Part shown: piece after piece, positions 1 to 55,666 of the stretch
Layout: the number at the start of each line of letters is the position of its first letter
Position numbering within the stretch: position 1 is the first letter of the stretch
Assembly (NCBI GenBank): GCA_973895155.1
Contig: OZ316895.1
Span: forward strand, 4,265,659 to 4,329,658
DNA from: Marsupella aquatica
Taxonomy: Eukaryota; Plantae; Marchantiophyta
Direction: 5' to 3'
DNA: 64,000 bases
Program-made: the position numbers and the translations under genes
Notes under the pieces: generated by a model
What the model saw: the letters and a program-made list of their open reading frames with translations, nothing else
What the model was told of the DNA's origin: nothing
The model's database searches: none

Positions 1-846
1 TGTTGACCACATCTTTCATATCATCTTCGGTCAGGTTCTCAAATGTAGGGTAGGATTGTACCATATCCCTCACTTCCCAACATATCTCATCTCCAGTGAC
101 ATCCAAGATGGTATACTCAATCTTGGAACGCCAAATCTTACTTCCCCACTTATGGGAAAGTAAATCATAGATTGCAGCATTACTTTCACGGTCATCATTT
201 ATATTAACAAATGACCAAAGTGGATTGTTGACAGATATATATTGTCGGATGTCATAAGCCTTCCACAATTTTCTAAGGAATGGCCAAAGTATCTCTGGTA
301 GAAAAGTGTCACTCTCGGCAATGTGTGAGAAGGGAGTTGGGAACAAACCACTATACTGTGGATTTGCAAAAACCTTCACTAGAGAGTCATCAATAAGTAG
401 AGTGTTTGTATCATCATACTTGTCTCCAAAACAACTCCACACCACACGCAAATCCTTCAACATAATATTTGCTTTCCCATCTGCTACGTCCGGTCTTTTT
501 ATGCAAGTATCAAAAGCATCTTCTTGTGTGAAAACAAATTTAAATTGCCTCCGCTCCTCTTCTTTGAAAATCAAATTCATCATTTCATTAGTTCTTGGCC
601 TCCCCGCACAAGTCCACAATGCGACATCAAAACCTTTGAAAGCCACCTCCAAAAATTGGTGCAACCTTGGCCTTTCCACGTACATGAAATTGAATCCACC
701 CCGTCTCCCCCAATGCACACCCTGCACAGTTGTTGTAGATCTTAACGGTCCCGAGCTTTTTGTTTTGACGCAATCCCAACAAATTTTGTTCAGGTCCAAA
801 ATCAAGAGTTTTCTTCTTATATCAGAGTGCAATTTAGGAGTGAAAT
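1..846 (-). CDS. Exon encoding an FCP1-homology (NLI-interacting factor, HAD) phosphatase-like domain; absent from the ORF track
   Basis: Hand translation after acceptor TTTGCAG|AT at 847/846: DFTPKLHSDIRRKLLILDLNKICWDC...FMYVERPRLHQFLEVAFKGFDVALWTCAG...FVFTQEDAFDT...MLKDLRVVWSCFGDKYDDTNTLLIDDSLVKVFANPQYSGLFP. The frame is open to the window edge. Confidence 0.85.
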
Positions 847-3800
847 CTGCAAAGATCCAAATGAATCAAAATTATATCTAAAAGATATAAAAGAAGAACT
901 TAGGGTCGAACCTGGATCGACCCGACCTAATGGGGAAAACAAACATATCATTTTTGAATGTCAAAGCATTTTGATATATCAATGTAGAAGTACCTTGCTC
1001 AAATGCTTTGTCTTGGACCAGGGTACCGCTTGCTGAAGGTAGACCAATAATATCCTTCGATGGAAGAGATGCTATGACAAAACTTTGGTCTGTCCATATA
1101 TGATTTCCAAACATAATATTTTAGATTATTGTGAAAAATAGAAGAACGAAACCATAATATTAACCTCCACTACTAAATGACCCATATTCATCTATCATTT
1201 TATCACCTAGATCACTTTGGATATCAGAATTGACGCCAACAGGAAGCTGCTCCACCAACATTGGCGGCGCAAACACTGGACTCAATCTCAATTTGTCTAT
1301 TATGTAATCAGGTTTGACCATTAACTTAGGCGCATCCTCCGACGTTTCTTTCAATCCAACTTTAGGTCCATTTCTCCAAATAAAATGAGTTGCATAACGG
1401 ACTGTCTTTATATATCCTGTTCTACCTATCTCAGATCCAGACTTTTGAGACAAGCGTAATATTATGGGGCTTCCGCTTGACATCCTTGTGAAGACCAATT
1501 TATTCCCTGACAAACAAAATTGAGGAGACTCGGAACAAGTTGAAGCACCTGCCTCTTCAGCTTCAACATTTGTTGTCTCTCCAAGTGGAAGGTTGTCTTC
1601 AATCGCTTCTGCAATACCAACTTGTAGGTCCGTGGTGGGTGTAGTGGCCCCAATATTCTGCCAACCTGCATCCAATGTGCACGATACCTGCGGTCTCTCG
1701 GGATGCAATTTTGATACTTCAGGGTTGAGAGGATTTGATGGAGGGTCGCTCTCAGGGCGACCCGACATCACTATGTCGAGTTGAGGTAGCCCTTCAACAC
1801 CGTAGGTAGTAATGCCAACCATTTCTGTTGCTCGAGCATCCCAATTTCCGCCAAAATCCTCCTCTACCATAGGACTTGAACCTCCATCATCATGCTGCAA
1901 CTCACCATCCTCAAGGTCAACTCGCTGAGGGCCCGGTTGGGGGTTGTCCATAGGCCCGCAAAGAACACTTAGATGAGCTCTCCTAGGACCATGTACTCCC
2001 ATCCGCTCTTTCATAAGGGAGGGAATCCTGTTGCACAAAACCCTTGCATATGCTTGGGTGAAATGGTGTTCTTGCAAAGTGTCTGAATAGACAAAACAAT
2101 CTCGGTATGCCAACAAGGCCACCTTCAAAACCTGCCCTCCTGAAAAAAAATCGAGGACAGTCTCCCCCTCACCGGAAAAACATTCAATAATATTTTTGAG
2201 CATGTGTCGGGGCTTGGCATGCGGATTGACAAATCCTCCTCGACTTCCGACCATCTCAAACATTGGAGCTTGCCGCAATAAATCTGCCATATCAAATGCG
2301 GGAGACTGCTCCTCTGTCTCATTCTCTTTTCCCTTGTTTTTCTCTTGCTTGTCAGCCTTCACTTCAATATTTAAATCACAGTCAACATCGGGGTGAAAAC
2401 TAAATTTTGAATTGAACTCTGGCTTAAACAATTGATTCCAATCAAAATTGTCTTCACCTGTAATTCCAGCAAAAATGACCTGCTCAATCGCTCCTGTAAA
2501 AAGTAAGCCCTGCGGATTTGGGTGATCTTCCCGATCATAACTCCCGTATTCAACATGGATGGCCAAATGCTTTTCATGTCCTAATTTCCTTAGGGCACTT
2601 AAGATGTTGGCTGGAAGTGGCCCTGGATGAGTAGTCATGACAACTACAATGGTTGTATTCCTTGGCAACTCCACAATATATTGGAGCAATACAAAAATTT
2701 CCGAATCTGTCCATTCATGTTGTGGTGCCCTACTAAAATCAACAATTGCAAGTGGACACATTGGCGTCGCCTCTTCCAATAACTCTGGCGTGGTTGTCTT
2801 CATTAGATTCTCACTGAAGAACGTCAAGAAAGGCTCTGTTCGTGTGCGCCCAACTCCACCAAATTGTTTGCAGTACAACCCGTCTAATCTCACCATTAGA
2901 CTTTGAGGGAAAGCCTCTTTCACAATGTTCTTCCTTAATAAACTGCTAAGGTAGACCTCCCCAACTGCTCTTCGCAATTTTGTCAGCTCAAGTTGAGATC
3001 CCAAGACCGGCATGATGTTGACCACCGAAGCCCACGATGTCCCCCCGGGAAACTTCTCCTTGTGCTTCTCAACAAAGTACTCAACAATGACTTGCTTCAA
3101 TTTAGTCATTACCTTGATGGTATGAGCCATATCTGGCATTGACACCAAATCCATCTTGTTGGAGGCATCTTTCTTGAGAAGTGCTTTCTTCTCATAAACC
3201 GCGGTCAATATATCAATGATATCCTTAGAACTGATCTCCCCTTCAAAACATCTAAAAAGAGTTGGCGTGACCAGCTTTAGTGGCCGCGGCCCACCATACT
3301 CTCCTGCCCCGCTAGGGAGCTTCCCTGCCAACCAATCCCAACAAACAGTTTGCCATAAATGGAAAAGCTTATCCTCAGCAAAGAGCAACCAAAAAATGGC
3401 TTTCAAGCTCGACTTTCCCATTGTTATCTTTGCGAGGGCAAACCAATCCTGCATTTACATTCATCCACCAAAAAACATGTTAGATGTTTAAACTTAGAAA
3501 CTTCAACTTCTCTGCCTCGCCCCTAGAGCGAGGCGAAGAAAATGACAAAGCCATATGAAAATGGTTGGGGCAATCATTGTATTCATCATTCAATTTCATT
3601 TGGGTCGCTCTAAGAGCGAGGCAAAATTAAACTACAGTTCCAACTAATGAAAATGTTTACCTGGTATTTCTGGTTGTCTGTACTTTGGTTTGTTCCAATT
3701 CCTGGACGCGGTGGTTTCCCACATTCATCAAATTGCCTTCTCGCATGAACAACTGTCTCTAGAAAACAAGACTTAAACTGCATGGTCTGATTTATTGCAT

Positions 3801-5831
3801 TTGAAAGGCTCGAGTGCTCGACCAAAATTGCCCTTGGAGTGAGGTCTGATAAGATCCTTGCTTTCCGATATTGGAGTTTGCTAGCAAGATCAGTTAGCTT
3901 GGCATCCTTGTCTGCCCACCCTTGAATCCATTGTGCAGCCTTTGCGGAATGTTGCCCACTGATTGCAAGAAATTGTATCTCTTGCTTCTTAACACCAAAC
4001 AAAAATTGCTTCCGATCGCGTGCGGTATTGTCAAAATATAACAACTGCTTAGTGCGCTCTAGAAATGGAATCAAATCTGCAACATGTGGTTCCTGGCCAG
4101 GGTTTTTCATCATTGATTTTGCTATCTCTAAGGCATGAGCCTGGTTGAACATCCGATACACAAAAACTGCAGTAGGCGGAAGAATACTTTTAACCGGGAT
4201 TTCAAAAACCTCCCTGATTCCAAAAGTGTAGTATTGCTCGATGTTCCGCAAAGCTTTCTGCCCCTCCAATACATCTCGTTCCTCTGGTGCATCTGTTGGG
4301 CATGTATCATCCTCCGGATCCAAGACCAACCTTGCTTTTGACGCTAACACGGGCTTTGATTTTCCAATCTTGGCCTTCTTCTTGGGCTTCTTGTCGGAGT
4401 CCTTATCTTTCTTCTTCAACGCCGCCTTTTTTCCTCTAGTACTTCCTTCACTCCTTGGCTCTCTTTGTTTTCTCTTCTTCTGTGTTTCAGCCGACGTCAT
4501 TTCTTTGGCCTTCATCTTCATCTTCCCCTTACCTCGATGCTTTTCTTCCTTCTTCTTTTGAGTTGAAATCCACTTCATGCAAGCATCTTCGTCAAACTCA
4601 TCAGAGAAAATAAAACTCTTATCAATTGCTTGCTCATATGAAAAGCGTGTTGTTTCAATCATCCTCTGGACAACCCATGTGTTAGGAAGATCTATAAGGT
4701 CCGGATGATCATGCATGTACCGCTTCACAGAGAGGAATCCAAAGACAACATCAACCCCACTCAATTTGAATCTTCCATGCCTCTCAAGAACATCCTCTGC
4801 AATGAACCCATCTGGAAGAAATCCCATTGAACAAATACTAGCCTCCGAGCGTGCTATCCACTCCACGTTGATAATTGACGAGTACATCTTGATTGGCAAG
4901 TAAAGTCTCATCCACTGAGATCTTTCTGTGGATTCAATAATGATTGTAACATTGCGGTTATCACTGCAATTTACAAGGACCACAGGGCCCAACGCAACTA
5001 TCTTCTTGTCGTTCATTGTCTCAGCAGTGATTGCCTTGATACAAATCATCGACAAGTCATTCTCCATGATCCCTACTTCAAGTGCCCACGAAAATCCTGC
5101 CTTATCTTGTCCAGGGAAAATAAAGTCCTTGACATCCTTGGCCATAATATTTAACTCTGGGGATCCAAGTTGTTCTCCTGGAAAAACAAATTGAAACGAC
5201 AAACATTAAAGCAAGAGATCTTTTGTGTTGCCTCGCCCCTAGAGCGAGCTGGAGACAAGGTCTGCATCAACAAACATGTGGGTTGGGTCGCTCCTGGAGC
5301 GACCCTAGAAAAACTTAAATCAAGGTCCAACCAACAACAAATTTGGGTCGCTCCTGGAGCGACCCTAGGAAAACTTAAATCAAGGTCCAACCGACAAATA
5401 AGTTGGGTCGCTCCAAGAGCGACCCTAGGAAAACTTAAATCAAGGTCCAACCAACAACAAAGTTGGGTCGCTCCTGGAGCGACCCTAGGAAAACTTAAAT
5501 CAACGTCCAACCAACAACAAAGTTGGGTCGCTCCTAGAGCGACCCTAGGAAAACTTAAATCAACATCCAACCAATAACAACGACAAATCTTAGGCAAGAT
5601 AGGGTCGCTCTAAGAGCGACCCTTCAAAGACTAACTTGCATCAATTGTTGAATCATACTTACGTGGAACTGTGATATGAAATCCCCTTGAGGCGGCCAAA
5701 GCGGATTCCACCGACATCTTTAGTAAAGTGTCTTGAGAATCATACTCAAAGATTTTACTAGAATCAAAGTTCAGGGACTGCCCAGAACTAGAAGTGCTAG
5801 TAGAATCATCAGAACTAGAGGAAGTGGGCAT
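1..5831 (-). CDS. Transposon-borne multidomain protein (>=1637 aa, 3' end off window): ParB-like + degenerate N4C/N6A methyltransferase fold + FCP1/NIF HAD phosphatase-like domain
   Basis: Manual splice model: exons 5831-5663, 5177-3661, 3448-1165, 1089-994, 846-<1. All four introns are GT-AG and phase-compatible (1,0,1,1), e.g. CAC|GTAAGT, TTCCAG|GA, CAG|GTAAAC, ATGCAG|GAT. No stop up to base 1. Motifs: FEIPVKSILPP...FLAISGQHSAKAA; NPHAKPRHMLKNIIECFSGEGETVLDFFSGG; RKLLILDLNK...VERPRLHQFLEVAFKGFDVALWTCA...YDDTNTLLIDDS. Confidence 0.75.
5281..5580. repeat. 5 x 60-bp tandem repeat in intron 1, each unit with a 21-bp palindrome GGGTCGCTCC-N-(G/A)GAGCGACCC
   Basis: Units start at 5281, 5341, 5401, 5461 and 5521. 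The palindrome is perfect in three units and has one mismatch in two. Extra single copies near 5230 and 5601. Confidence 0.97.
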
Positions 5832-6118
5832 TGAAAAATGCCTCACAAATGTTTAGATGACATGTGGCAGCCTAGTATACAAGAACGCCTATAGCTAGAC
5901 CACACCACGGAGCGAGGCTACAGAGCAAGGAAAAAAATCTACTATGAGCAAGGAAAAATCAACAAAGCGAGGCAAGAAAATCTACTATGAGCGAGGCAAG
6001 AGGGAGGAGGGAAACCAGGGCAGCCGGGCAAGAAGACAATGAAGGAGGAGATGGATGCAAGAAGACAATGAGGCAAATGAGGTAATGTCTTTGCCTTTTG
6101 CCTTCCTATACCCTCACT

Positions 6119-6169
6119 GCCACGGCCGATCCTACGCCACGGCCGATCCTACGCCACGGCCGATCGTAC
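6119..6169. repeat. 3 x 17-bp GC-rich repeat (GCCACGGCCGATCCTAC) between the divergent genes
   Basis: Seen directly; the third copy has one mismatch. Confidence 0.9.
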
Positions 6170-6883
6170 GCGACCTTACGCAACCCAGCCACTTGCTCCC
6201 TTCCACGCGCCTGTGAACTCGCAACCCTCATAATGACCTAGTTGTACGGGTATCCATAGATTTTGAAAAATGATGCACGGTCGTACGGGTGTCCATAGAA
6301 TGCCGATCAGACTTTCGGCCTCTTGATGTTGTGAACCCCTTCAGGACAAACTTGGCTAAAGCTTGCTCACAAATGGTATGAAGCTCTACAGTTCCAATCA
6401 TTTCTCTCTTTTGTATGGCGCGTGCGTTTCTGGTCATTGCTCACTCTCGATCTCGCCCTTCGGCCCTTGTCTATCTTGCTTCTGTTTGGTGACCGATTTG
6501 ACTGACTTGGACATTTATGGTTACAAGAGTTCGTGCAAGGAAAGTCCTGTTTCAAGTATATTGCATTAGTTTTGGTGTCCTTGGTTGGCGACACGTCTTC
6601 TATAGTCCTTAAGAGAGGTATTACTTCATCTACCATTCTCTTAATTTCTTCTCTATGATATCCACCAAATATTTGGCCCTAGCTTTATCTTAATATATGG
6701 ACCTAACTAAGCCCTAGATAATGTAGGGTTCCTAACGACACACTCGTCTACCCACACGTCTACACACTTCAATGGTCTAATTCAGCTTAATCATTCCCCT
6801 GATTTATTCATTTCCATATTTTCTCTTTTCCTTCACAATTCTTGCTTCTCCAGGATTGTGCTCGTCTTTTCTTGCTCTCCCGT

Positions 6884-7288
6884 TGCCTCGCTCCAAGAGC
6901 GTCATGCCCTTGCCTCGCTCCAAGAGCGTCATACACTTACCTTTCATCAGGAGCATCCTGCCCTTTCTTTTCTCCAAGGGCATCCGCTCTCCATTTCCTC
7001 GCCATCAGAGCGTCCCTCAACCGCCTCGCCCCTAGAGCAACCCTCCATCGCCTAGCCCCTAGAGTGGCCCTCATTCACCTTGCCCCTAGAGTGTCTCTCC
7101 ATCGCCTCGCCCCTAGAGCGACCCTCATTCACCTCGCCCCTAGAGCGTCCCTCCATCGCCTCGCCTCTAGAGCAACCCTCCATCTCCTCGCCCCTAGAGC
7201 GACCCTCCATCGCCTCGCCCCTAGAGCGTCCCTCAATCGCCTCGCCCCTAGAGCGTCGCAACCTTGCCTCGCTCCAAGAGCGTCCCTG
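6884..7288. repeat. About 15 x 27-bp tandem repeat with core CCTCGCCCCTAGAGCG, a variant of the same palindrome
   Basis: Direct reading. The 9-aa periodicity (LAPRA...) of ORF 6842-7354 reflects this repeat. Confidence 0.93.
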
Positions 7289-7464
7289 ACCTTAGAATCC
7301 TGTTGTGTAAAGCCAATACACATAAACTATCAAATATTTTTTTCCTTTAAATAGAATTCAAATGTTTAGATCTAATATTGTAATATCTAGAGTAGTGCTT
7401 ATCAGTATGCACATCAGCTGAACAATTTTTAAATGTTTTTGGATGCAGAGATCCTTTCGCTACC

Positions 7465-10400
7465 ATGAGTAAATTTATGCGAGGGGATGAAGTTTCATTG
7501 ATAATTGATGGTTTTGAAGTGGCAATTGGGACCATCCAAAAGGTTGATCCCAAAGACACTATACACAATATTTGTCTTGGGAAAAATCGAATTGGGGTCC
7601 TTATCGAGAGGTGTCTTGAAACATCTTGTCCACTACCATTTCCATCCAAAACATCATCGAGCCTAGGTGATGCAGTTGACTCGTGTGTGATCTGGGATTC
7701 TTCCTTGGCATATTTGAGGTCTTCAACATTGCCGAAAAGAACCGTTGTGGATGGTGTTCCTACTCCAGTGGACGGGGATGAAGGATGTTCCGAAATGGAT
7801 GTTGGTGGTAAAGGAGGCAACCTTGCTGAAGGAGAGGAGGTTGAGATGTTCATTTTAGATGAACTTGTATCAAAAGGAGTTGTCTTCAATACCAATCCAA
7901 TGGACACTTGTCATAGTGAACGACTCGGTGTTGGCCGTGTCAGTATACAAATATCAGAGGTTGTTCAGGGAAATAGAAAATTACCGTATCCGCATCCTGG
8001 AGCTGACACAGTGCAAGAGGCAATGCAGACTTGGGTAATGTGGGATGTTGCTGATGTTTCAAGAAAAGGCTCTATTCGAGGTTCTGGCATGTTTGTTGGT
8101 GCAAACCCGGGTGCAAACCTGTTTAAGGATCTTCCATTGAAAGATTTTACAATGCGTTCCAACTGGATGGCAGAGGAAGTTGACTTGTATGATGTTTCTC
8201 GTTGTCGTAAGGTTGCGACAGGGGTTATCACAGTTCCTTTTGAAGCAGGTGCTGTTGATGATGAACTTCTTGGTCCAGAGCATGTGGGTGTAGCTGTTGT
8301 GAATATCAACGATCCCGCATTATTTCCAAATATCCGTGCTGGTACTCCAGGTTTGGTGAGGTGGGAAATCAAATCTTTGTTGTTGATTTCATCTCAAATG
8401 TTTCTCGGGGATATCCTTGAGAAAGGTTCACATGTGTGGATAGAATCAGGTCGAAATGAGAGCGACCCGGATTTGGATGGTGATGGGAAACCTCCAAAAA
8501 GACCTTATAATTTCATTAGAAGGACCAAAGTGGATCTGGAGGAGAAAAAAAAACATTTGCAATCAAGGGCGCTTTTGAAAATCACCGAGCCTGAGTCCAT
8601 TGATTCCATCCAAAGAGAAGGTTGTTGCAGGTTAAAGTGTTGCTTGAACATGCCAAGAGAGGACTTGGAGGCAATGAGGAGGGAATTTCATGGAATGTCA
8701 AGTGACAACAAAACAAGTCATATCTTCAATCTTTTTGGGTGTAGAGAAGACCAAGTCAAGAGAAAAGGATTTTTTGTTCTAAAGGGACGTGTGGTTTGTA
8801 AGGATGCGTTCATAAAAATGCATGGGTTTAGTACGACAAAGTATTATGATTACAAAAATCAGTACGAAGCTGGGTGCACAATTGGTTTCCATGGAAATCA
8901 AGGGCAACATAAGACACGATCAAGCACCTTGCATGCTCGTGCATTGTTGGAGTCCATTTTAATCCAAAATGGAGAACCAATGCCACATCTTCCCTATGGT
9001 GGGTCCAACGGCACCGATACTGTCGAATATCGACTCCCATCATGTTTCACTAAGAAGGAGATTTTTCAAGAGGTATTTGCAAAGATGGAATTGGACGGCT
9101 ATGCTAAGGTTACTGAAGTTACCATGTACAACATCTGGAAAAATTCTTTTGATAATTTTGACTTTCACAAGGGCAGTGCATTTGCCAAGTGCACATTTTG
9201 CACTGAGTTCAAAGATCAATTGATGCGGGAGAAGAGAAAAAAAGAGCGTGCAGAGATTGAAGAGAAAAGAGCACGACATCTTCGTGAACAAATGTCAAGG
9301 AGATATGTTTACTATGCTCATAGGGTTCTTGCAAAGAAGGATCCTCAAAACTATCTTTGCATTATTCATGATAAGATGGACCAAGCCAAGACTTGGATCC
9401 CCAGATTGGTCCCCACTCCAAAATCTCTCTCTGGTAGTGGTCAACCTCTGCCCATTGCCCTTACTGGGATGTTAACCCATGGAAGGGATCCAGGAGTGTA
9501 TGCACACTTTAGTTTGACTGGCCTTTGGCCTGGAGATGCAGACTTCACTGTGACATCTTTGGCCAAATGCCTTCGAGATTTGGAGGATTACACTGGAGAC
9601 AAAACGGGAGACATGCTTGAAGCTTTCAATTGGAACGCAACTAGGCCAATATTTCAGTCTCTTTTGGACTTTGAAGCATTTCAAGCGGGTTACTTGGAAC
9701 CCAAAAATGTTTCAATTCTCAAGTTTCAAGGCCTTGATGATGGTCAGGAGAGCCAAAAAACCAGCACAACAGATGCTGGTTCTACAGTTGATCCTGAGAC
9801 TACGAGCTCTTTCAAGCCCTTACCAAGGCACCTAACACTGCAGATGGACAATTCAGGAAAAGATAATAAAAATCAATATGTGATGGCATTTTGCAGCGAG
9901 CTTGTTAGCAGGGGGTGTTTGAAACTGTGCAAATGTCATTCCTCATGGTTGGCCACACCCATGAGGATGTGGATGCACTATTTTCTCAAGTATCCAAACA
10001 GGTTAGGTACAAAGAGGTTGCTACCCTCCTTGCGTTGATGGCTGAGGTTTGGGAGTGTGAAAGCATCCATCCCGTACCACGATTGATTCAGGAGGTTGCA
10101 TCTTACAAGCACTATTTGAAGGCTTTCCAAGTGAAAGAGATTGAAGGTCACTCAAAACCAGTGGCATTTCTATTCTCCATGAGGGATAATGTGCCAGTGT
10201 ATCAATATAAAGCACATGTCAAACAACCTTGGCTTCCAGCAACAGGGAGGTCAATTTGGAGAACTGATCTCATCACAAACACGCTCATTTTACCGGAGGG
10301 CCAACCATTTGCAAAACCTATATCGGGGGAGGTACAAAAGAAAGCCGAGGAAATCATCCCATTCCTTAATCGTTACATTGATTTCTTGAGGAAAAGTTGC

Positions 10401-11201
10401 AAGGATGAGACCTCTGCAGCATACCGCGAGAGATTTCCTTTGGTGAAATATTGGGAGAGGCTTGTTATGGCACTCTCTGAGGCACTTACAATAGAAGGGG
10501 AGGGAGAAAGACAATTGTCATTGACAACTGATTTCTGGCCAAAGACTAACCATGGCACAGGTTACAAGGTGATTTTAGGGACCTCTCAACCTTCAAGTGA
10601 ACCTACTCAAAATTCAGAGATGATGGACCTTCAAAATGAGTACATGGAAGAGATGGAAGGTCAAGCTGCACCCTTTGTTGGTGCACGAGAAGAGCGAGAA
10701 CTTGCACGTTGGATTCCCCTACAAGATATTCAAGAGGGTCACTTTGTGTTTTTACGTCCAGAGGATGAATGGGAACAAAAAAATGGCAAAGGGCGTTTCT
10801 GGTTAGTTCGAGCTTTGGGTGGTGTGGATCCAAACCATGAGGTTTCTTCACTAGATTTGCAATTTAGTGAAGGGTCTTCTTCAAGGTTTTCTAAGAGCAT
10901 TCACCTAAGTAGCATTCCTAAGCGGTATGCTCCTATGTTCCAAGTGCAATGGTGGAGGCCTAAACATGGTAAGCATGATGCAAAGGATGATGTTCGATAC
11001 GAACGTTGCTTTCAGACCACTAAGACTTGGGAGCTAGATCCTGGGTTTAACACTATCACTCAAAGTTGGCAGTTTGCAAATTCTGCAATGTATGGGTTTA
11101 AGTCAGGTGCCAAAGAACAAAATATTATGGATAGAGGTTTGACAATTCCCAAGAATGTTTTGAAAACTCTCAAAACTTACATGGAAGGTATTGATGAGTA
11201 G
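7465..11201 (+). pseudogene. Transposase with one frameshift at a G5 run (9911-9915): 3 x Tnp1/En/Spm-like N-terminal repeats, Cys-rich region, DUF7869/Sola-like catalytic core
   Basis: Core motifs CIIHDKMDQAKT, LQMDNSGKDNKNQYVMAFCSELV and, after adding one G, RGVFETVQMSFLMVGHTHEDVDALFSQ. Three similar units of the form EV.L....VA.G......LG...V.V.I...LP.P...V.W(D/E) in the first ~310 aa. Confidence 0.85.
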
Positions 11202-12353
11202 AGTGATAGAGTGGTCACAAGTGTCCACTATGTAATGACTTGTAGGTAGGAGGGTCAAGTTAATTTCCATGCATTTGTCTAAAGTAAGTGAGAGAACAAG
11301 GCTTGCAATCAAATACTCTATGATCTTTCTTAGTTATTGAATGGACTTTTTGATAAAAATTGTTATTTTTGTCTTAGTACATATATTTCTAGAAAATGAT
11401 GGCAGTTCTAAGTTACTTGGATGTCATCCTAGTTTGAATATAAGATATTTAACTTGTCTAGCATTTCATTGTTGCTTAGATAATGATCCTATCCAAGCTA
11501 GATGTTTTGAGTATAGATGCTATCCAAGCTTATGTGTTATTACACACGTTCTATCTATTTTCAACCAAATGAACACTTTTTATCACCCAAATGTTTTTTA
11601 ATATTATCCAAATTAATATTTTCTTTGCCCAAATGTCTATTTTTTTGCCCCAAATTTATAATTCATGATGCTTAAATTTTCATTTTTCATCCTTCAAATT
11701 TACAATTCTTATGCCTAAAAGTGTGTTTTTAAATGCCCAAATTTCCAAATCTTCTTTATAATTCCACTTTTAATGAATATAGTGATATAGAGCTTTCATA
11801 ATTGACCACGCAACCCAATGTCATGATACTAATCAAGAATTGGCCCAAACTGTGGATCTAAATGAACTCAGAGGTGTATAAAAACCCCAGGCACTCTATA
11901 AGAAACATCAAATGTGCCTAAGGTTGCATGTACAACGCAAGAGCTAAGAACTAGGAAGTTAAGCACCTATTGAGAGGAATAGTGTTTGGGTAGCGCTAGG
12001 GCCGCCGATTGGGGTAATCGCACTTCAATTTTTGATTTGATTCTAATTGGGACCCCTGTCCCATTGTAGTACAATAGCACAATAGTTTCCGATTGCAAAG
12101 TACTTGGAAATGGTCATGCCATTCTCACATAATTCATTGGACAATTGTTTGCCATTTCTTTTGAATTGAATGCGTCTTTCCGATACTAGTTTAATTGGAC
12201 AAGTCCAATCTCGGTCCAATAACGCTAACCCGATTGTTTGGGGATTGGATGATACGATGCGACTTCAATCGGAACATCGGTAAAAACTGCAACAATCCGC
12301 CGAAGGGGTCCGATTTGAGGAGAATTGGATTAAGGGTGAATTCTGTACTAGTG

Positions 12354-13706
12354 CAATAAGTCCCCAACGGACTTCTCGTTGGAAAGTTATTATCGTTTCC
12401 GTTTGGCGTTTTCCCTTACTGTTGTGACCGCCGCGGCTCACGACTTCGGCTCACCCGTAGCCCCCAAGGAGATACCACTCCCCTCATATATGCTTCTGGA
12501 GACCTATCACCCCCAAACCAAATTTGGTCCCTAAACTTTTGGACCCCAATTCGGATCCTATCCCGCATACCCCCTGGGCCCTCAATCTTAACTAATACGT
12601 GGAGGACGTGTGAACGCTCAAAGGGTAGTTTTTATTAATTTTGAACTAATAATTATAATTATTACCGGTTATAAGGGAACTTTTAATAGTAAAATAGAAA
12701 TAACAAGGGGTAAACAGGAAAAAGGCCCAATCGCAGGGGGGTCCACTTCTTTTACACGGAGTGAGGGCCCAGGGCGCATGACTGGGCGCGCTACCAATTG
12801 GTAACGTCCATAACTTTCTCGTTAGACGTCCGCAAGCGGAGTGCCTTAGCCCATTGTGATCAGGCTGACCTAGTGCTCATGCCTAGGCCCTCAGATCTTA
12901 TTGCCGCTTGAGGCCCCTAATCAGCCAAATCCAAATCGGGCCATAACTTGCGCCCCAAGCGTCCGTTGCCCATGGCGTCAACTCCATTAGCCTTCGGCCC
13001 AAGAGGAGCTCTCACTCAAGCCCTCAGAACTCAAAGTCCGTTCGGGGGTCCGGACGGTTGACCTTGAGCCCGACACCTTTCCCCTTGACCCAACCAGCAC
13101 TCAGCTAGTCTAAGTACTTAGTGTGTCACCAACTTGGCGCCTTGCCTTCGCTAACTGTGCCACGTCTCATTGCTCACAAGTCTCCCCATGCTAAGTCCTC
13201 CCTGATGGCCTATTTGGGATCTGGACCATATTAAGGGAGTTTGGCGTTAAAGTCAGCGATGCCAGAGCTAAGTGTTAAGGTAGTCAAGTTCTGCGGCTAA
13301 CACCAACATTGAACACTAAAAAAACCGTTACAAAAAAACCTTGTCACCTCTCAGGCATGCTCTAATACCAATTGTTGAGCATATAGATAACAATCACAAC
13401 GGCAAACCCATAGACCATCCAACGTACAAGTATCAACACCAAGAGATACGTGGTTCACCTCCACATGAGGCTATGTCCACGAGAACACACAAGATCTTTA
13501 CTGCACTCTAGGCCGACCGACCATACCAAGCATCCACAGCACAAGCTCTCCCTATCTCTCAACTGGCTCCATAACAATGAGCCTGAGTGAGTTCCTACTT
13601 TCCAAGCAAACATTGCTTGGATATAGTTTGTGCACAACACGACTAAGGTTAGCGCTAATTGTAGTACACTCGTAACTCTAGACCTAACTAAGAGTAGATC
13701 CTAACA
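12354..13706 (-). mobile_element. 5' LTR (13373-13706) plus start of the internal region of an LTR retroelement, interrupted by the CACTA-type element
   Basis: LTR TGTTG...CTAACA is homologous to the solo LTR at 62293-62640. tRNA-iMet-type PBS (minus strand TGGTATTAGAGC, + 13359-13370) lies 2 bp from the LTR. Confidence 0.75.
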
Positions 13707-23621: not shown

Positions 23622-26600
23622 TTCAAGAGTTGGGCACTTGTACTTTTACTAGTCATGATGGGAAATGTATTTCTATTTAATTGGCATGTGTTTCTCCCAC
23701 TCAATCCTATCAAAAACTAAGCAATCATCATTTACACATCGTCTACAAGATTTAGATATGAAGCATATTCCAAGATGAACCTGCTATATCCAAGATTGAT
23801 GCCAAGCTCCCGGCCAAGCTTTTCTTTCTCCTCGATGACAATATAAAACATGCAAGGGGGTTTCATAAGCATTTAAATTTTTCTTGACTCTAAGTTTGCA
23901 TCTTGAGATGTCATATGGAACACTATTAGCCCATTTTGTCCAAAAGCTTGTGTGTAGTCTGTTGACAAAATTGAAAGTCAATGAGGGAACCCACAATAAG
24001 GTCATATGTATGTATTTCAGGTTGTTTATACAATCACTTGGAGCAAACCACACATTGGAGTAGAAAATGACCCTGCGTGCACTGTTCGGTAGGGGTCTCA
24101 CCCCAGGGTCCTCACTTCTTTTCTTCCAACCCATCACGCTTGAATAAGTATAGGGTTCTTTTATTGGGTTTAGTGAAAGACTTTTAAATTTTTGTTTAAG
24201 AATACTAGAGTTTTTTAAATCCAATTTTGAGAATTCTAAGAATTATAGGATTTTTTAAAACCAAATTTGAGAATATTCCAAGAATATTCCATTAAGTTAG
24301 AGGTAAAACAATTCCTCAAAAAAACTTTATTCACTTAAGTTTTAGGGTGTTTATTCCCCCAAAACTTCGCGTGTGGTATGGGACACCCCTTGGATTGAAG
24401 CCCCTGAGCGGGCCCCTGAGGGGCTCACAATTGCAAAGTTCAGTCTTTAAATCATGACTTATGTGGGTATGTTTGAGACAAAATAATATAACATTGAGAC
24501 TATAATACAACATTGCACCAAAAAATGGCGTGGTCATTATTCAGAATCACTGGGCCGTTTTGGGTGGAAAAAGCAAAATGGTAAAATGAAAAGGAATAGC
24601 ACAAAAAAGGCATGGAATCCGCTCAATGACCACTCCACGCCAACAACCCTTCCACCCTCCTGCTACCAATACTGGCCTCTTGAAGATCATGTGGATATGA
24701 CTGTCCGCCTGCCCTCCCCATTGCCAGTGTGCCCGCGTCTGTTAGGTTTCCTCATCTTGACTTTGCTGCCCTTGGCCAAGGGAGGTACAATCCTCCTTAC
24801 TGGTACACCTGGCCATAATCCCCCCACACAAAAGACCTGGGGTACTCACTTATTTTCTTTCTACCCATCACGCGAAGTAAGTATAGGATTTGTTTATTGA
24901 GTTGAAAAGAAGAACATTTCAATTGGGTTTGTAAAATCCAATTTTGAGAATTATAAGTAAAGATAGGGTTTTAGAAATGAAATGTGAGAATATTTTGAGA
25001 ATATTCCAAAATGGGGGTAAAACATAGTTTTAAAAAACAATTCCTCTTATTTTTAGGGTATTTACTAGTTAAAAATGTCGAACGTGATATGAGACCCCTT
25101 TAGAGTGAGGCCCCGAGACAAAAGAGCTCAACTTCTGAGGTAGGGGCTATTAATGCCCATTAATGCCCTTAATGCCAAACAAGAAGCTCGACAAGAAGTG
25201 GCCAGAATCAAAACTCCAAAAGATGCCCAGATGCGGACACATGCACTTGGCTTAGTGAAAGCATGATTCTCTCTTCAAGGTGGAAATGCTCTAAGTATAT
25301 ACAATAGTTGGGGCTTTATATAATAGCAGAAGATAATGACAAGGACCCACTCATGGATGAAAATGGCTCTAACTTTTGAAGAAGAAGTGATGAAAAGAGT
25401 ATCTTAGCATTCAATGTCACAACCTATGTAATTAAAGATTGTATACACCGTGTCATTATATTTATAAAATACTGGACAATTGGGCCTTTTTAGAATACAA
25501 ATAAATAAAAAGCACATAATAACAGGGAAACGGGATCTTAACACACCTAAAGGCTTAATAAATTTTTATTTCTACTGAGTTTAATCAAACTAAAAGAGAT
25601 TCTTACTAACCAGGAGAGAGATCTTGACAGGACTGACATTCTTATGCCAAAAATGCCCTGAAAAATACAAAGTTAAAAATCACTGAGTTAGGATATAAGA
25701 AAGTCCTTTTATTTAGAAGACATTGTGTGCCATAATTCCCCCAAAACAAGAGCTTCAATGCCGGATAGAGGCTATATATTGGAATAGGAACTTTATACCC
25801 TTAAGGTCTAAGCTTTTTTATTTTTGTTACTGTTAGACTCTACCTTTGACAGGACGACCGGACCAGCCGGTCACCCTGGTCCCACTATATGTACTCCTAT
25901 TCCCGACTATACAGATGTTCATTCCATTCATATTCTCACACGTTATCAGCACGAGGTCTCAGCCAGCGGAGCCAAGAAAAAGAAGAAGAAAAGAGACGGA
26001 GGCTAAGAAACTTTTGAAGGGTTATGGAGATTGCATGAAAAAGGGAGCGAGGACTCATTAAATAATGATAAGGCCTCGACACTTAAACAATATTGGAAGC
26101 GTAGTGAGAGACTAGAATTCATAAGGACATCGATCCGGACTCATTGGAGGAGAACCGAGAGAGATCGGAAAGAAGCAGCATACGAGATCCTCACGACTGC
26201 GATAAGAGATTGGAAAAAGGATTGGAGCGATCGATCAAGAGAAGCAGATCGAGCAGAGTCATTTTGAAAATTGAGAATTGAGCCCCAATCAGCGAGAGCC
26301 GGCCTCAGTATCATTTAGCAAACTCGAGATTGGAAAGGAGCGAAGAAACTTTGAAAAGCTTACAGAGATCGGAGGAAACTCTCAAAGGCTTACGGAGATC
26401 GGAGGTGATAAGGTCCGTCAATCACAGGCGCAGCAAGAAAGTACAATGAGGATACCATAAGTACTTTCGAAAATAGAGGAGACGAGGCCATATAATCTTC
26501 CAAAAATTGAAGGAGAGTGGATAGGGATGGATCGATGATGCCTGAATCGAGAGGTGAAGTGATCAGGACCAGAAGGCGAAGCAAGAGGAATTACGAGTGA

Positions 26601-27762
26601 AGCCAAAAACGGAAGAAACAGGGAGCACCGAAATTTCAAAGAAATGCCACAGGGACATTGAGACTTGAACTCGTAAGGACAATATAGCAGAAAAGGAAGA
26701 GATCAAAAGAAGAGCAACAGGATCAACATTGGAGCCTCGAATCCTGATAAGGACACAAGGAAAATCGAAAGGAAAGGAGCGATCCCGATGGTCCGTGACC
26801 CTCGCAAGTCACGAAAGGAGAAAGCATGAGCGCGAAGGAAGCTTACGAAGGTCCAATTGAAATTATGTTACATCATCAGAAATCATAAGAGAACCACTGC
26901 CTCGTCCCGATCCATCGGCCCAACATGGCAGTCTCGACACCGGCATAGCATCTGCAGGTCACAGCGTAACACTAGGAACGACGGATGAGTCCGGAGACTT
27001 GCAGGATAGTTTTATAGCTAAGTGCGACCAGAGTCGATGCACGAATATGGAGAAGGAAGACAGCCGAGCACAGACGCGAAGCCTGACTTTTCAGGACCAG
27101 AATTCAAAGTGCGAACAGATGACGATGGCGATGGCGTGAAAACAGAGAATCGGGAATGATAAGCAAAATCGATGCAGAGGTATATCAAGGACCCAGTGCA
27201 GACACGCGAACCTTGGAAGGGAGCGAAACAAGAGTAACAAGTCAGAACTCTAATTGAAGCAAGACGAGATTTTAAGAGGCACCAAAGGAACACCAGCAAT
27301 GGGATCACCAAGAGGGGAGAATTGCACTACATTTCATCGACAAAACGTCGAGTCCGATTGAAAACCGCTAAGTGCACGACCAATAACCACAAAACCTCCA
27401 TAAGTGCATTTCGTAACAAAGGAACTCAACTTTACAAAGCCAAATGTGCACTTAACCAGGTCATGAGTAAATAACCACTAATAACTGCACAAACTGCAAA
27501 ACCTCATTACTGCACAGCTTAACAAAGGAAAAAGATAATACAAAAGAAACCTTGCAGTTATACATTCACAAAGAAAACCAACTTAATAAGTGCAAACCCT
27601 AAATTCTGCAAAAACCCAAACATTCCCGCTTTACTTGACAATGACCTAGATTACTCTCCTCAACCTTTTCTCCACCATTGCATGCAGCAAATGTGCATTG
27701 TCTTTTGACTATATATATTATATATAAACACGACACCACCGCTGCACGCCAGGACCTTAGAG

Positions 27763-30700
27763 ATGACCAACCTTGAGAAACTCACCTTCCTCGCCCTAGA
27801 AATAGATGGCGGCAACTACCTAGAATGGTCCATGAACCTAAGAGAAAACGTAACCTCGCTAACCCTACTCCCCGCGATAGGGCACGCTCAACCCATCCTA
27901 GCCGGCGAACCACAACCAGACCCATTAACTAAAGCCAACAAATCGAAAGCCCTAGTATTCCTGAGACGCCACATCCATAGATTTCTACAGAGACAATACA
28001 TGCACCTTTCGACTCCTCGCGAACTATGGACAGCGCTCCAGACCCGATTCGACCACCAGAAATTGGTCGAATTACCTAGAGCCAGGCAAGACTGGCTCAA
28101 CCTGCGGGTCCAAGACTTTACTTCAATTTCAGCCTACAATAGCGAACTCTTTAGAATCACAGCAACCCTCGCCCTTTGCGGCGAGCCAGTTACCGACAAG
28201 GACTTACTAGAAAAGACCTTGTCCACGTTCCACTCATCGAACGTATTACTCTCAACTCAGTACCGGAACATGAAGTTCGGGCAATACTCCGAGCTCATAG
28301 CCCACCTTCTAGTCACAGAAAGAAACGAAGAACTCCTTTTAGTTAACTCTAGAAAACGTCCTGCGAGCACATTGCCTCAGGATCATAGAGTGAAACACAT
28401 CTTACCGACACCGCTGAACCCTCCACATCAAGGCAGGGCATTAAGCGCAGTAGGAATGGCAACCATAGAAACAACCCCAACAGGGGGAGTTTCTTTAACC
28501 AACGCCCACAACACAATTTCAGACGGTCCTTTAGTGGACGTGTAGGACGCGGCGGACGCGGCGGTGGTAGAACATATAACAACAACCGTAGAAACGATTG
28601 GTCACAATCCCGACAACAACGGGAACGACCGAAATGCCATGAATGTGGCATGACAAACCACCTAGCGAGAAACTATAGAATCCCGCAACACCTTAGAGAT
28701 CTATACCAACGGTCCATCCAGGATGGACAAACCTCTAGGCCACCACCCCGTGAAACCCACGGGGCGTTTATGGGGTCCAGCGACCCATTCCAAGACTTTT
28801 CAGATCTACCTGCCCAACCCAAGGCACACTCAGTGGCAAGTAGCTCCACTACACCAGATTTAAATAGTCCAAGCACATGTATTATCGACAGTGCGACCAC
28901 GCATACTATCCTCAGGGATAGGCACCTTTTCCACAAGATTACACCCTCACGTAGATCCCTAACCACTATAAATGGCCCTAGCCAAATAGAAGAAGGCTTC
29001 GGCCCAGCTTCCATTAGACTACCGCAGGGTACAGCGATTGACATAGAATCTGCCATTTTCGCCCCAAACGCAACCCGTAATCTCCTCAGTTTTAGAGATA
29101 TACGAGCAAATGGACTACATGTCCAGACGGGCGACACAAGAGACCAGGAAGTGATACACTTGGTTGAAAATACCCCTACGGGGAAAATCATTAAAGAAAC
29201 CCTTTTCTCATACCCTTGCGGGTTTTATGCCCTGGGCCCTCACTCTTACTATATCAAGTGAACCCCCCTGAGAACAGATACCCCCCGTGTACCCCTTCTT
29301 AATATTTTTGTTCACAAAAAAAATCCCCTTGTTAATGTAAAAATATTAACTTTTCCTATTAAATTTTATCCTTTTATAAATTATAATAGAGTTTTTCAAG
29401 GAATTGAAAACACCCTTGAATTTTTAGAATTACAAATATCATACTGAAATAGTGAAAACTTTATCTTTCATAGGGGACTTGTATGTTATGCTCGATGTTC
29501 AAGGTACATATTTTATATAGATAAACAAAATTAGGACGAGAGAAAATTATAGTTCTTCCTATAGTTTACACATAGACCTGCAGTTTTGTCTTAGTGTTCG
29601 CAAAAGTGCCTCTGAACTTCTAGTTTTCATTAGTACTATATATGTATAATCCAGGAATAATACTTCAAAGTCTGAACCAACTATAACAAACATTGTTTGA
29701 GCGCTCGAGACCCCTCCCTCAATACACAAACACATCTGGCCTCATACATGGCTGTTTGATTCAAGGGAATTCAAAAGTAATCTTGTCCGTCCATGTGGGA
29801 TTAATCCATGGATCCCCATCAATCCCAGTTTCCCAACCAAGTTGGGCCCAAAGATCCTGGCCCAAAATTTACTCAACTCCCCACTTAACTCCTAAACATG
29901 CGGGTAAACATGTCTACCTTAACCCATTTGTTCCACCATAAGGGGACCAACGAAACCAAACTTGCCTTAAGATGATAATAATTAAATATATGATTTACTA
30001 TATGGACACGTGTGCAAATGAAGTGATGACATGTGTGTCAACCATATAGTGACGCGTGTACTTGGCATTTTGGGTACCCTTGCATAAGATTTATGTGACA
30101 TGTATTTGATTCTTGCCTTATTACTAATATTGTGGTGAATGTATATAGAGGGATGTTGCCTACTTTAAAAACTGTTATAAAAATTAGTTTGCATTACATT
30201 AAAAATACCCTTGCGTTGTTCGCACGTCCTCCCTGTATTAGTAACACTAAGGGCCCAGGGGTTTTATGTAACTCATATTGAATGCCTGCATAACAATGCC
30301 CAAACAAGTGAATTGCCCGCGCTTTGGCATGCACGCCTCGGCCACCCCGGCCAATCAATGCTAAGTAAAATAATTAAGAATTCAAGTGGCATTCCAATCA
30401 ATACACGCCACTTTCCAGCTAGCACCCCATGCACTGCATGCTCACGCGACAAATTAATAACAAGGCCCACGGCATTAAAATTGCCAACCAACATACCCAA
30501 ATTCTTGGAAATAATCCACGCCGATGTTTGCGGGCCAATTAACCCACCGAGCGGACCTTTCTGCTACTTCATGGTATTAATCGACGCATCAACTAAATGG
30601 TCAAATGTGACACTGCTTTCAACGAGGAACATGGTTATGCCTCGTATCTTGGTGCAAATCCTGCGCGTGAAGGCACAATTCCCAGATCACCCCATAAAGA

Positions 30701-33426: not shown

Positions 33427-34507
33427 TGATGCTGATGATATGCTGTTGAGGACCTACTGATGAGACAAATGTTAAAACTAGATTTACTATAGCATCTAAC
33501 TTTACTTAACATTGACATTTATTACGACGAGGACTGTTAGGCTGCACTCTTTTTCCTTTAGCACTCATATTTTTCTCTGCTACACTGGTAGAGTTTTTAC
33601 TAAGCTAGAGTTGATAAAGGTTTTTTAACAAGGCAGTCTACCTCGATTGTACTTATATCATGTATTTCCTATGAACATGATATAATAGGTATAGTCTATG
33701 TTGTCTATATAGTTGTCACTATATATCCAAAAGGGAGTGTTAGACTCTACCTTTGACCGGACGACCGGACCAGCCGGTCACCCTGGTCCCACTATATGTA
33801 CTCCTATTCCCGACTATACACATGTTCATTCCATTCATATTCTCACAGTTACTTTAATTAAAAGGATGGGAGAATTTTCACAGGCAAAGGAGAGGCGATC
33901 CTTGAGGAGTAACTTTATTGTAATAATATATTCAGCTGGTGGTTGTCTGCAGTTGTAGTATTGTGGTACATGCTATGCAACCATTTGGCATGGAAAAGGC
34001 CCCCCCGGGGGGGTGGAGGTGGGGGTAAAAGGCGGGAAATGAAGATTAGGGGGGCAGGGCACTCCAAGACATTTGAACATGGATCCCTTAAAGTCAACAG
34101 GCAAGGGGCTTGAAAGTCAATGTCAACTACCCACCAAGAAATCTATTATTTGGCAATGTCTTTGTTGTTCTCTTGTACTCACCTTTGTTTACGTACAAAG
34201 AAGTGGCAGGCTATTGTAGTTGTCAAACACTAACGGAGCTGAGTGATTGTTGGAATAAGCAGGTTATGTGTTTCTACTTTTGTGTAGGGAACCCATCCGG
34301 GATGTGCATGGCCAGCCAGCCCTTCGTCAATTGGCAGCTGAGCCTCTAACATTATGCACCAATCTCACCTCAGTTCTAAGTATGACTAGATTCAGTCTAA
34401 CTTGAGTGTATGTGTGCGCCTAGTCCCCATCGTCAATTGGCAGCTGCGCCCGTAACGTTGAGTCGAACTTGAGTGCTCGCTTGAGTGTATCTGTGCGCCT
34501 CGTCCAC

Positions 34508-49533: not shown

Positions 49534-49563
49534 TATGCGAGCCTTAGATTGAGCCTCAGTTCG

Positions 49564-55294: not shown

Positions 55295-55666
55295 ACTCAG
55301 CTAAATGTGTGCTGCGCGCATTCATGTATGCAAGCTTGGATTGCTCAATTAAGAGGTTGAAGAAATGTCTCGGCTGCAGGCATCTACTGTATACCAAGCT
55401 ACAGCTTCCATGATCTGCGGAAACGGACCAGCAACAACCATAAGCGTTTGTTGAATCTGGCGTTTGAAGTTTACCCATAGATTGGTCTTTTGGATGGAAT
55501 GAGCAGACTTCCGTCAGGACGAGCCTCTCTGCTAGAATTCCTCCGATGCATGCCCTTGTTCATGTAGTTCCAGGGCAGAATTTACCTATCCTCATACATT
55601 GATAGCCATCGTCGGGGCTAGAATTGATTATTCTTTCGCCCTGATACCCAATCGAAGAGAGTCACC

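What the first reader, a model, noticed from the sequence alone, without database searches (positions are those of the whole stretch)
1..12353. Plant DNA transposon carrying a ParB-like / amino-methyltransferase-fold / CTD-phosphatase-like gene plus its own palindrome arrays: candidate self-regulatory or anti-silencing system
Seen: a transposase and a spliced gene of at least 1637 aa sit head-to-head inside one CACTA-ended element, and a single palindrome family is arrayed in the non-coding parts. Established: Spm TnpA and VANDAL VANC proteins bind repeats in their own elements and counter silencing; bacterial ParB loads at palindromic parS sites; ParB-methyltransferase fusions occur in phages and mobile elements. 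Inference: the cargo protein recognises the arrays and changes DNA modification, chromatin or Pol II state on the element. I know of no described plant TE with this domain combination.
Basis: partly seen in the sequence, partly recalled or inferred. Interest (0 to 1): 0.92.

Follow-up and report, generated by a model that had tools for sequence, protein, structure and literature searches.

The report
Liverwort transposon with ParB pseudo-enzyme cargo
This liverwort-type jumping gene carries a second large gene built from bacterial-style ParB and DNA-methylase folds plus a phosphatase fold, all three lacking key catalytic residues, and its protein likely binds the element's own palindrome arrays to keep it active, a design already proposed for seaweed transposons.

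Summary
The anatomy is real. A spliced minus-strand gene (1631–1637 aa, open past base 1) lies head-to-head with a frameshifted DUF7869 transposase. 24 copies of one 21-bp palindrome lie in 1–12353 and none in the other 51.6 kb. The three folds hold up: ParB/Srx (AlphaFold plus two fold searches), beta-class N4/N6 methyltransferase (profile matches) and NIF/HAD phosphatase (Pfam). One Riccia sorocarpa protein has the same domain order, and 2 of 14 Riccia cargo genes sit within two locus tags of such a transposase.

Corrections: (1) All three folds look catalytically altered: no ParB arginine in 77 of 77 rows, no DPPY in 9 of 9, DLN instead of DxD in this copy. (2) The transposase lacks the CMC/EnSpm motifs and is Sola-like; the left end and target duplication are untested. 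(3) ParB-methylase cargo, palindrome arrays and the self-modification idea are already published for brown and red algal transposons. (4) This copy is decaying with a methylation-type signature.

Verdict: a new variant of a known kind. The best reading is a non-catalytic self-recognition factor; binding and anti-silencing are inferred, not shown.

The parts
5663..5831 (-). Cargo gene exon 1 (ATG at 5831, Ser-rich start)
   Evidence: GT donor at 5662, open join to exon 2; not checked by RNA
3661..5177 (-). Cargo exon 2: beta-rich N-terminal domain, Lys-rich linker, ParB/Srx-fold domain
   Evidence: AlphaFold model, mean pLDDT 83.9, 69 sequences; 84 relatives at E<=0.001
4696..5148 (-). N-terminal domain, weakly PH/PTB-like
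   Evidence: VIA-align Z 4-5 to many PH/PTB/FERM chains over model residues 10-160; weak
3784..4224 (-). ParB/Srx N-terminal fold; GQHSxxA where ParB has GxRRxxA (motif at 3957-3934)
   Evidence: Foldseek top 10 all Noc/ParB/PadC, E 3.3e-3 to 3.1e-2; VIA Z 7.8 PadC, 7.7 ParB-N, 7.6 KorB; 0 of 77 rows keep the Arg
1165..3448 (-). Cargo exon 3: helical region (about 3448-2855, candidate DNA-binding part, unproven), methyltransferase-like fold, acidic linker, small conserved beta-rich block
   Evidence: 42% identity to Calypogeia P0136 over aa 522-1321
2000..2842 (-). Beta-class N4/N6 DNA methyltransferase-like fold; motif IV reads D-F-S-R instead of D-P-P-Y (2749-2729), motif I reads F-S-G-G (2152-2135)
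   Evidence: Pfam PF01555 E 3.6e-5, 24.3 bits, below cut-off 26.7; family profile vs M.RsrI E 1.4e-7; hhalign 98%
994..1071 (-). Cargo exon 4 (acceptor 1071 or 1089)
   Evidence: inferred; 74 open alternatives for introns 3-4
1..846 (-). Cargo exon 5, running off the window: NIF/HAD (FCP1/UBLCP1-like) fold at about 817-320; motif I reads DLNKI (799-782)
   Evidence: Pfam NIF E 6.4e-15, above cut-off; UBLCP1 structure E 9.9e-9; TIGR02245 E 1.6e-10, far below its cut-off
5230..5622 (.). Palindrome array in cargo intron 1: 7 sites, mostly 60 bp apart, core GGGTCGCTC-N3-GAGCGACCC
3514..3622 (.). Two palindrome sites in cargo intron 2 (3514, 3602)
903..923 (.). Divergent but near-perfect palindrome in cargo intron 4
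   Evidence: PWM score 17.4
1743..1763 (.). Palindrome site inside cargo coding sequence
   Evidence: PWM score 28.5
6885..7286 (.). 27-bp tandem array of 13 asymmetric sites of the same family, upstream of the transposase
5832..6884 (.). Divergent promoter region (inferred), with two half-sites (5910, 5989) and three 17-bp repeats (6119-6174)
7465..11201 (+). DUF7869 (Sola-like) transposase with motifs HDKMD, LQMDN and GHTHED, three N-terminal modules of about 90 aa, and a copy-specific frameshift near 9910
11980..12353 (.). Subterminal CCGAT/ATCGG repeats and candidate right end (CACTA on the minus strand)
   Evidence: terminal inverted repeat and target duplication untested

Best explanation
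This is a decaying copy of a large Sola-like (DUF7869) DNA transposon of a probable liverwort, whose divergently encoded cargo protein likely acts as a non-catalytic self-recognition factor that would bind the element's own 21-bp palindromes on both sides of the shared promoter and would help keep it unsilenced. Shown here: the gene layout, the three folds, their altered catalytic motifs, the conserved domain order in Riccia, and palindromes confined to the element. Inferred steps: (1) A dimer recognises the palindrome, probably through the helical region that follows the ParB-fold domain, as in ParB/Noc/KorB (established for those families, recalled). (2) Occupancy shields the CG-rich sites or recruits host demethylation, as published for Spm TnpA. 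(3) The methyltransferase-like and phosphatase-like folds serve as binding modules (DNA or SAM; phospho-peptide such as the Pol II CTD), not as writers or erasers.
For: Folds. Altered motifs: 0 of 77 ParB-like rows keep the Arg (59 read GQHS); 9 of 9 methyltransferase-like rows keep the motif-IV Asp but lack PPY, while 9 of 9 bacterial comparators have DPP[YF]; the NIF motif I is DLNKI. Riccia R1sor_025532 carries ParB-, methyltransferase- and NIF-like segments in the same order (blastp E 8e-17, 5e-5, 2e-12). Linkage: 2 of 14 Riccia cargo tags lie within 2 tags, and 3 of 14 within 6 tags, of 46 sampled transposase tags (P about 0.004 and 0.003 under uniform placement over an assumed 27,000 tags). 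Palindromes: 24 in the element, 0 outside. In the 11 cargo-side sites 22 of 22 CG slots are intact, while coding CpG observed/expected is 0.41-0.58. The same pairing of a ParB gene with inverted-repeat arrays is reported across red algal Plavaka families.
Against: No binding, expression or methylation data. No helix-turn-helix was detected: only 5 rows cover that region and the single-sequence model has pLDDT 37. No Foldseek hit reached E<=0.001 and the best Z (7.8) is under the tool's caution line of 8. 11 of 14 Riccia cargo tags had no sampled transposase tag within 6. None of 7 Calypogeia cargo accessions is adjacent to any of 9 transposase accessions. 0 of 20 metagenome transposase loci held cargo (short and distant loci). 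This copy looks methylated and decaying. Of 25 listed cargo differences from run X1 (from 40 shown of 816), 18 are C-to-T type, 12 of those 18 in CG/CHG context (P 2e-4), and 21 of 25 change the protein. In the 27-bp array 5 of 26 CG slots have decayed to TG/CA, so any protection is incomplete. The DLN reading rests on this one copy.
Confidence: 0.45

Rival explanations
1. The cargo binds the palindromes but acts as a KorB/Noc-like repressor or organiser. It would damp the divergent promoter (self-limitation) or condense the element for transposition, rather than counter host silencing.
For: Top structural matches include the repressor KorB and Noc. The arrays lie inside cargo intron 1 and just upstream of the transposase, where bound protein could block transcription. 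The copy shows methylation-type decay.
Against: Published plant accessory factors that bind their own motifs (TnpA, VANC) activate and demethylate (passages). The ParB arginine tied to CTP-driven clamp spreading (recalled) is absent in 77 of 77 rows.
Confidence: 0.2
2. The palindromes are binding sites for the transposase (for example its three N-terminal modules), and the cargo works elsewhere or without sequence specificity.
For: No DNA-reading domain was identified in the cargo. The transposase has a long N-terminal extension shared with Riccia P0159. A 2026 preprint reports that transposases themselves activate cognate copies (passages).
Against: 11 of 24 sites lie inside the cargo gene, far from the right end, which has its own pentamer repeats. 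In red algae the arrays are reported beside the ParB gene.
Confidence: 0.15
3. One reading: the cargo is an active enzyme that writes 4mC or 6mA on the arrays and dephosphorylates Pol II, using non-canonical active sites.
For: The motif-IV Asp is kept in 9 of 9 rows and the motif X/I region (KP...DFFSGG) in 7 of 7 rows that reach it. NIF motifs II-IV (WT, KDL, DD) are present. A liverwort 4mC methyltransferase exists (MpDN4MT1).
Against: PPY is missing in 9 of 9 rows, whereas MpDN4MT1 has TSPPY. Motif I is one residue short. The second Asp of DxD is Asn.
Confidence: 0.12
4. The cargo is a captured passenger or a neighbouring host gene with no role for the element, and the palindromes are a spreading minisatellite.
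For: The left end was not seen. Most sampled homologues were not shown next to a transposase.
Against: The gene is multi-copy in two other liverworts, adjacent to a transposase in Riccia, and shares one motif family with the transposase 5' region. The same pairing is described in Ectocarpus.
Confidence: 0.08

Closest known systems
Sola1-1_Ec32 of Ectocarpus (PMC12477816; passages; supplement rows)
   Same: Giant Sola-type DNA transposon with an opposite-strand accessory gene joining a ParB-like domain and an N4/N6 methyltransferase domain; the authors propose that it binds and modifies its own element.
   Different: 21.5 kb, AACCG termini, 282-bp TIR, 4-bp TSD, 1104-aa product with no phosphatase domain mentioned and methyltransferase treated as active. 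Here: at least 1631 aa, extra PH-like and NIF domains, altered catalytic motifs, candidate CACTA end, land-plant host. Sequence homology between the two was not tested.
Plavaka (EnSpm) elements of Bostrychia with PAG2/PAG3 (bioRxiv 10.1101/2025.02.11.637652; passages; supplements not seen)
   Same: ParB-like accessory gene with tandem arrays of inverted repeats beside it; PF01555 methylase in the same cassette; same self-binding hypothesis.
   Different: ParB is fused to a 2OG oxygenase and the methylase to SET, in separate genes; the transposase is EnSpm-type.
Spm TnpA and VANDAL VANC anti-silencing factors (bioRxiv 10.64898/2026.08.24.746577; passages)
   Same: Element-encoded factor plus clustered cognate CG-containing motifs; working model for the inferred function.
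   Different: TnpA uses tandem helix-turn-helix domains derived from transposases, acts at the termini, and is reported as restricted to flowering plants. No ParB, methyltransferase or NIF fold.
Bacterial ParB/Noc/KorB/PadC and beta-class methyltransferases such as M.RsrI
   Same: Fold of the exon-2 domain and motif order IV-then-X/I of the exon-3 domain.
   Different: Arg of the GxxRxxA box and PPY of motif IV are absent; no helix-turn-helix was detected.
MpDN4MT1a/b of Marchantia (bioRxiv 10.1101/2021.02.12.428880; passages)
   Same: Prokaryote-type amino-methyltransferase in a liverwort.
   Different: Host genes with intact TSPPY and shown activity; the word ParB does not occur in the text; relationship to the cargo not tested.

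Membership tests
CACTA/EnSpm (CMC/CMCT) | [quoted passage not shown] | tested here: not met
   Absent between LQMDN and GHTHED in 6 of 6 homologues and in the window; the single C(2)C lies before the first D. The assignment of catalytic residues to these motifs is mine.
CACTA/EnSpm (CMC/CMCT) | 5'-CAC..GTG-3' termini at both ends | tested here: inconclusive
   One candidate end at 12353; no partner in the window
CACTA/EnSpm (CMC/CMCT) | 2-3 bp target site duplication | not testable with these tools
   Left end lies outside the window; no genome held
Sola superfamily | Transposase homologous to Repbase Sola1/2/3 | tested here: inconclusive
   Pfam DUF7869 met. The link DUF7869 = Sola is recalled and stated in unchecked scan notes; no Repbase sequence was compared.
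Sola superfamily | 4-bp target site duplication (AWWT for Sola1) | not testable with these tools
   Left end not available
ParB/Srx superfamily | ParB/Srx N-terminal fold | tested here: met
   Foldseek top 10 and VIA-align top 6 are all members; scores are moderate (E 3e-3, Z 7.8)
ParB CTPases (ParB/Noc/KorB) | Arginine patch GxxRxxA | tested here: not met
   0 of 77 rows have Arg; 59 read GQHS; hhalign puts GQHS on GERR, at low probability
ParB CTPases (ParB/Noc/KorB) | Central helix-turn-helix that reads a palindrome | tested here: inconclusive
   No alignment beyond the N-domain; 5 rows cover the region; model pLDDT 37
Beta-class N4/N6 DNA methyltransferases (PF01555) | Motif IV precedes motifs X and I; profile similarity | tested here: met
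   hhalign 98% against 9 comparators chosen from this protein's own tblastn hits; M.RsrI E 1.4e-7; Pfam score below cut-off for the window, above it for P0150
Beta-class N4/N6 DNA methyltransferases (PF01555) | Catalytic (D/N/S)PP(Y/F) | tested here: not met
   9 of 9 rows lack PPY
FCP1/SCP/UBLCP1 (NIF) phosphatases | NIF/HAD fold | tested here: met
   Pfam 55.6 bits vs cut-off 21.8; UBLCP1 E 9.9e-9
FCP1/SCP/UBLCP1 (NIF) phosphatases | DxDx(T/V) motif I (recalled) | tested here: not met
   DLNKI in this copy. A copy-specific change is unlikely: the X1 contig over 1-1373 differs at 8 letters, 7 are listed and none is in this codon. No homologue with motif I was available.
Algal ParB-methylase transposon accessory proteins | ParB-like plus PF01555-like domains in a giant DNA transposon, opposite strand to the transposase | tested here: met
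   against the description
Algal ParB-methylase transposon accessory proteins | Common ancestry with the Ectocarpus or Bostrychia proteins | not tested
TnpA/VANC-type anti-silencing systems | Sequence-specific binding and hypomethylation of cognate copies | not testable with these tools
   Needs ChIP/DAP-seq and methylome data

The most novel reading that the evidence does not exclude
A bacterial ParB-methylase module was carried by Sola-like transposons into early land plants and turned into a triple pseudo-enzyme. It reads the element's own palindromes and couples them to RNA polymerase II through a dead CTD-phosphatase fold. That would be a sequence-specific anti-silencing system of bryophytes, unrelated to TnpA and VANC and shared by at least two distant liverwort lineages.
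Probability: 0.2. Interest if true: 0.8.

Novelty: new variant of a known kind. Interest (0 to 1): 0.5.

Why it matters
Only a few transposon proteins are shown to recognise and unsilence their own elements. The algal ParB-type candidates are untested, and one of the papers notes that experimental tools are lacking in Ectocarpus. A liverwort family with a defined 21-bp site can be tested in Marchantia. The loss of the methylase catalytic motif across the family suggests that these accessory proteins may work by binding rather than by writing marks, which would revise the published hypothesis. The same genes are annotated as hypothetical host proteins in Riccia and Calypogeia.

Tried and rejected
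No whole genome was held, so copy number, left end and target duplication were not tested; a read-based look at the right end was not obtained. RNA: no RNA holder listed; the four laid runs are contigs, and no joint at a predicted intron is among the 15 of 28 joints shown, so this says nothing on expression. Search for full-length relatives of 913-2605 aa with exon 2: 0 of 6489 candidates. ParB-like domain by sequence: no Pfam match above cut-off (best DndB E 0.04) and no relevant PDB sequence hit. Single-sequence model of exon 3: pLDDT 37, and its fold search was uninformative. Metagenome scan with the ParB-like alignment: 0 of 97 stretches confirmed. Scan with the transposase: 20 loci, none with cargo. 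Transposase N-terminal modules: I recalled a likeness to En/Spm-associated Pfam domains, but Pfam and PDB gave nothing. The protein atlas and the complex predictor were not available, so a dimer prediction was not made. Literature searches that found no land-plant or phosphatase-fused case: DUF7869: 0 papers; listings only, 20 of 173 shown for 121. Two liverwort genome papers hold none of the terms Sola, CACTA, DNA transposon or ParB. Not seen: Iyer 2011 (cited for green algal cases, reference list only); Bao 2009 and Yuan & Wessler 2011 (ids recalled, not held); the Bostrychia supplements and Repbase, any of which may already list bryophyte members. Considered and set aside: that TG-CACTA at 12355 begins an LTR. 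It does not match the neighbouring LTR-like repeat, and depth at 12132 is in the element's range. This is not fully excluded.

Full report
1. What is in the sequence. Window 1-12353 holds two genes head-to-head. Introns 3 and 4 have 74 open alternatives, so their ends are inferred. Intron 2 is supported by homologues that align across it (P0055, P0136) and by 31 of 44 homologue ORFs that read through into a Val at the same place. On the plus strand a transposase runs from 7465 to 11201 with a frameshift near 9910. Both parts match Pfam DUF7869, and contigs of 3 of 4 laid runs carry one more base there. The named best hits are liverworts: Calypogeia fissa at 67% for the transposase and 48% for exon 3, then Riccia sorocarpa. 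The host is therefore probably a liverwort.

2. Repeats. One 21-bp palindrome family gives 36 strand matches against 0.31 expected. A matrix trained on 18 sites finds 24, all within 1-12353: 13 in a 27-bp array before the transposase, 10 in cargo introns 1, 2 and 4, and 1 in cargo coding sequence; none lies in the remaining 51.6 kb. All 22 CG slots of the cargo-side sites are intact, whereas 5 of 26 in the 27-bp array read TG or CA. A second motif, CCGAT/ATCGG, is enriched in 11980-12353 (7 against 0.4).

3. Ends and class. CACTA reads on the minus strand from 12353 and is followed by CAA; no partner end lies in the window and no genome is held. The flank resembles the leader of an LTR retrotransposon (primer-site-like 13361-13372; 13373-13706 repeated at 62293-62640), and laid depth jumps in that bin. 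This fits a boundary there but does not prove it. [quoted passage not shown] I read it as Sola-like. That label rests on recall and on unchecked scan notes, not on a comparison with Repbase.

4. The cargo protein. An AlphaFold model of exon 2 from 69 sequences has mean pLDDT 83.9. Foldseek ranks Noc, PadC and ParB in its top 10 (E 3.3e-3 to 3.1e-2, none under 1e-3). VIA-align ranks six ParB/Srx-superfamily chains first (Z 7.8 to 5.8) and gives a weak PH/PTB-like match for the N-terminal domain (Z about 5). The domain is the ParB N-terminal fold. Its GxxR box reads GQHS in 59 of 77 rows and never has the Arg, and a DNA-reading helix-turn-helix was not detected. Exon 3 matches PF01555 below cut-off; a family profile hits M.RsrI at E 1.4e-7. 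Profile-profile alignment with 9 bacterial and phage beta-class enzymes (98%; comparators taken from this protein's own hits) places AIVD-F on IVTD-PPY: the Asp is kept and PPY is lost in 9 of 9 rows. Exon 5 is a clear NIF/HAD domain with DLNKI at motif I. All three enzyme folds thus look altered at the active site. This is family-wide for the first two and shown in this copy only for the third.

5. Is it cargo? The gene family is multi-copy: 14 Riccia loci and 7 Calypogeia accessions were named. Riccia R1sor_025532 carries the three domains in the same order. Two of 14 Riccia cargo tags lie within two tags of a sampled DUF7869 gene (021779/021778, 013749/013747) and a third within six (P about 0.004 and 0.003 under uniform placement, which ignores clustering of transposons). 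Against this, 11 of 14 had no near sampled partner, no Calypogeia pair was adjacent, and 0 of 20 short, distant metagenome loci held cargo.

6. State of this copy. Contigs about 99% identical cover most of the element in run X1. Among 25 listed cargo differences from X1 (from 40 shown of 816), 21 change the protein, no fewer than the 67% expected without selection. 18 are C-to-T type, 12 of them in CG or CHG context (P 2e-4). With the transposase frameshift, this points to a methylated, decaying copy (inference).

7. Mechanism. I commit, at 0.45, to a non-catalytic self-recognition factor. A dimer would bind the palindromes that flank the shared promoter and shield them or recruit host demethylation, as published for Spm TnpA (passages), with the methyltransferase-like and phosphatase-like folds serving as binding modules. 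Rivals are a KorB/Noc-like repressor or organiser (0.2), transposase-bound arrays (0.15), an active non-canonical enzyme (0.12) and a functionless passenger (0.08). No step of binding or regulation is shown here.

8. Prior art and novelty. An earlier scan note led me to Ectocarpus Sola1-1_Ec32, whose opposite-strand gene encodes ParB-like and N4/N6 methyltransferase domains; its authors propose a class of accessory proteins that bind and modify their own element (PMC12477816, passages and supplement rows). The Bostrychia preprint describes a ParB accessory gene with adjacent tandem inverted-repeat arrays and the same hypothesis (passages). PMC4738411 (passages) lists ParB-linked adenine methylases of phage origin in algae and inactive methylase domains in DIRS1 elements. 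The concept is therefore known. What my searches did not find in print is a land-plant case, the NIF fusion, or the family-wide loss of catalytic motifs; Iyer 2011, Repbase and the preprint supplements were not seen. Unchecked scan notes report similar elements in an animal and a moss-like plant.

Noticed in passing
window 7465-8400: The transposase starts with three similar modules of about 90 aa (seen by eye), also present in Riccia P0159; no Pfam or PDB match.
   Followed up: partly
window about 1200-1560 (cargo aa about 1195-1320): A small block after the acidic linker is well conserved in Calypogeia homologues (ending DEYGSFS) and has no Pfam match.
   Followed up: partly
window 12354-13706: Leader, primer-site-like sequence and LTR-like repeat of a minus-strand retrotransposon; the LTR-like part recurs at 62293-62640 with 79% identity.
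   Followed up: partly
window 25831-33851: Copia-like retrotransposon with several stops (ORFs 27709-33426) between 97%-identical repeats at 25831-25945 and 33738-33851.
   Followed up: no
window 45605-51468: Minus-strand LINE-like element (ORF1, endonuclease, reverse transcriptase by eye) broken by stops.
   Followed up: no
window 40954-41421: Exon that looks like a class III peroxidase (recalled motif).
   Followed up: no
window 55628-56227 and 58441-59349: Two related ORFs with signal-peptide-like starts and a shared C-terminal part; the second has Leu/Gly/Asn-rich repeats.
   Followed up: no
window 6119-6174: Three 17-bp direct repeats, CG-rich, in the divergent promoter region, unrelated to the main palindrome.
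   Followed up: no
window 7441-7464: An AG acceptor-like site just before the transposase ATG suggests a 5' UTR intron, so the 27-bp array may lie in the transcript's leader.
   Followed up: no
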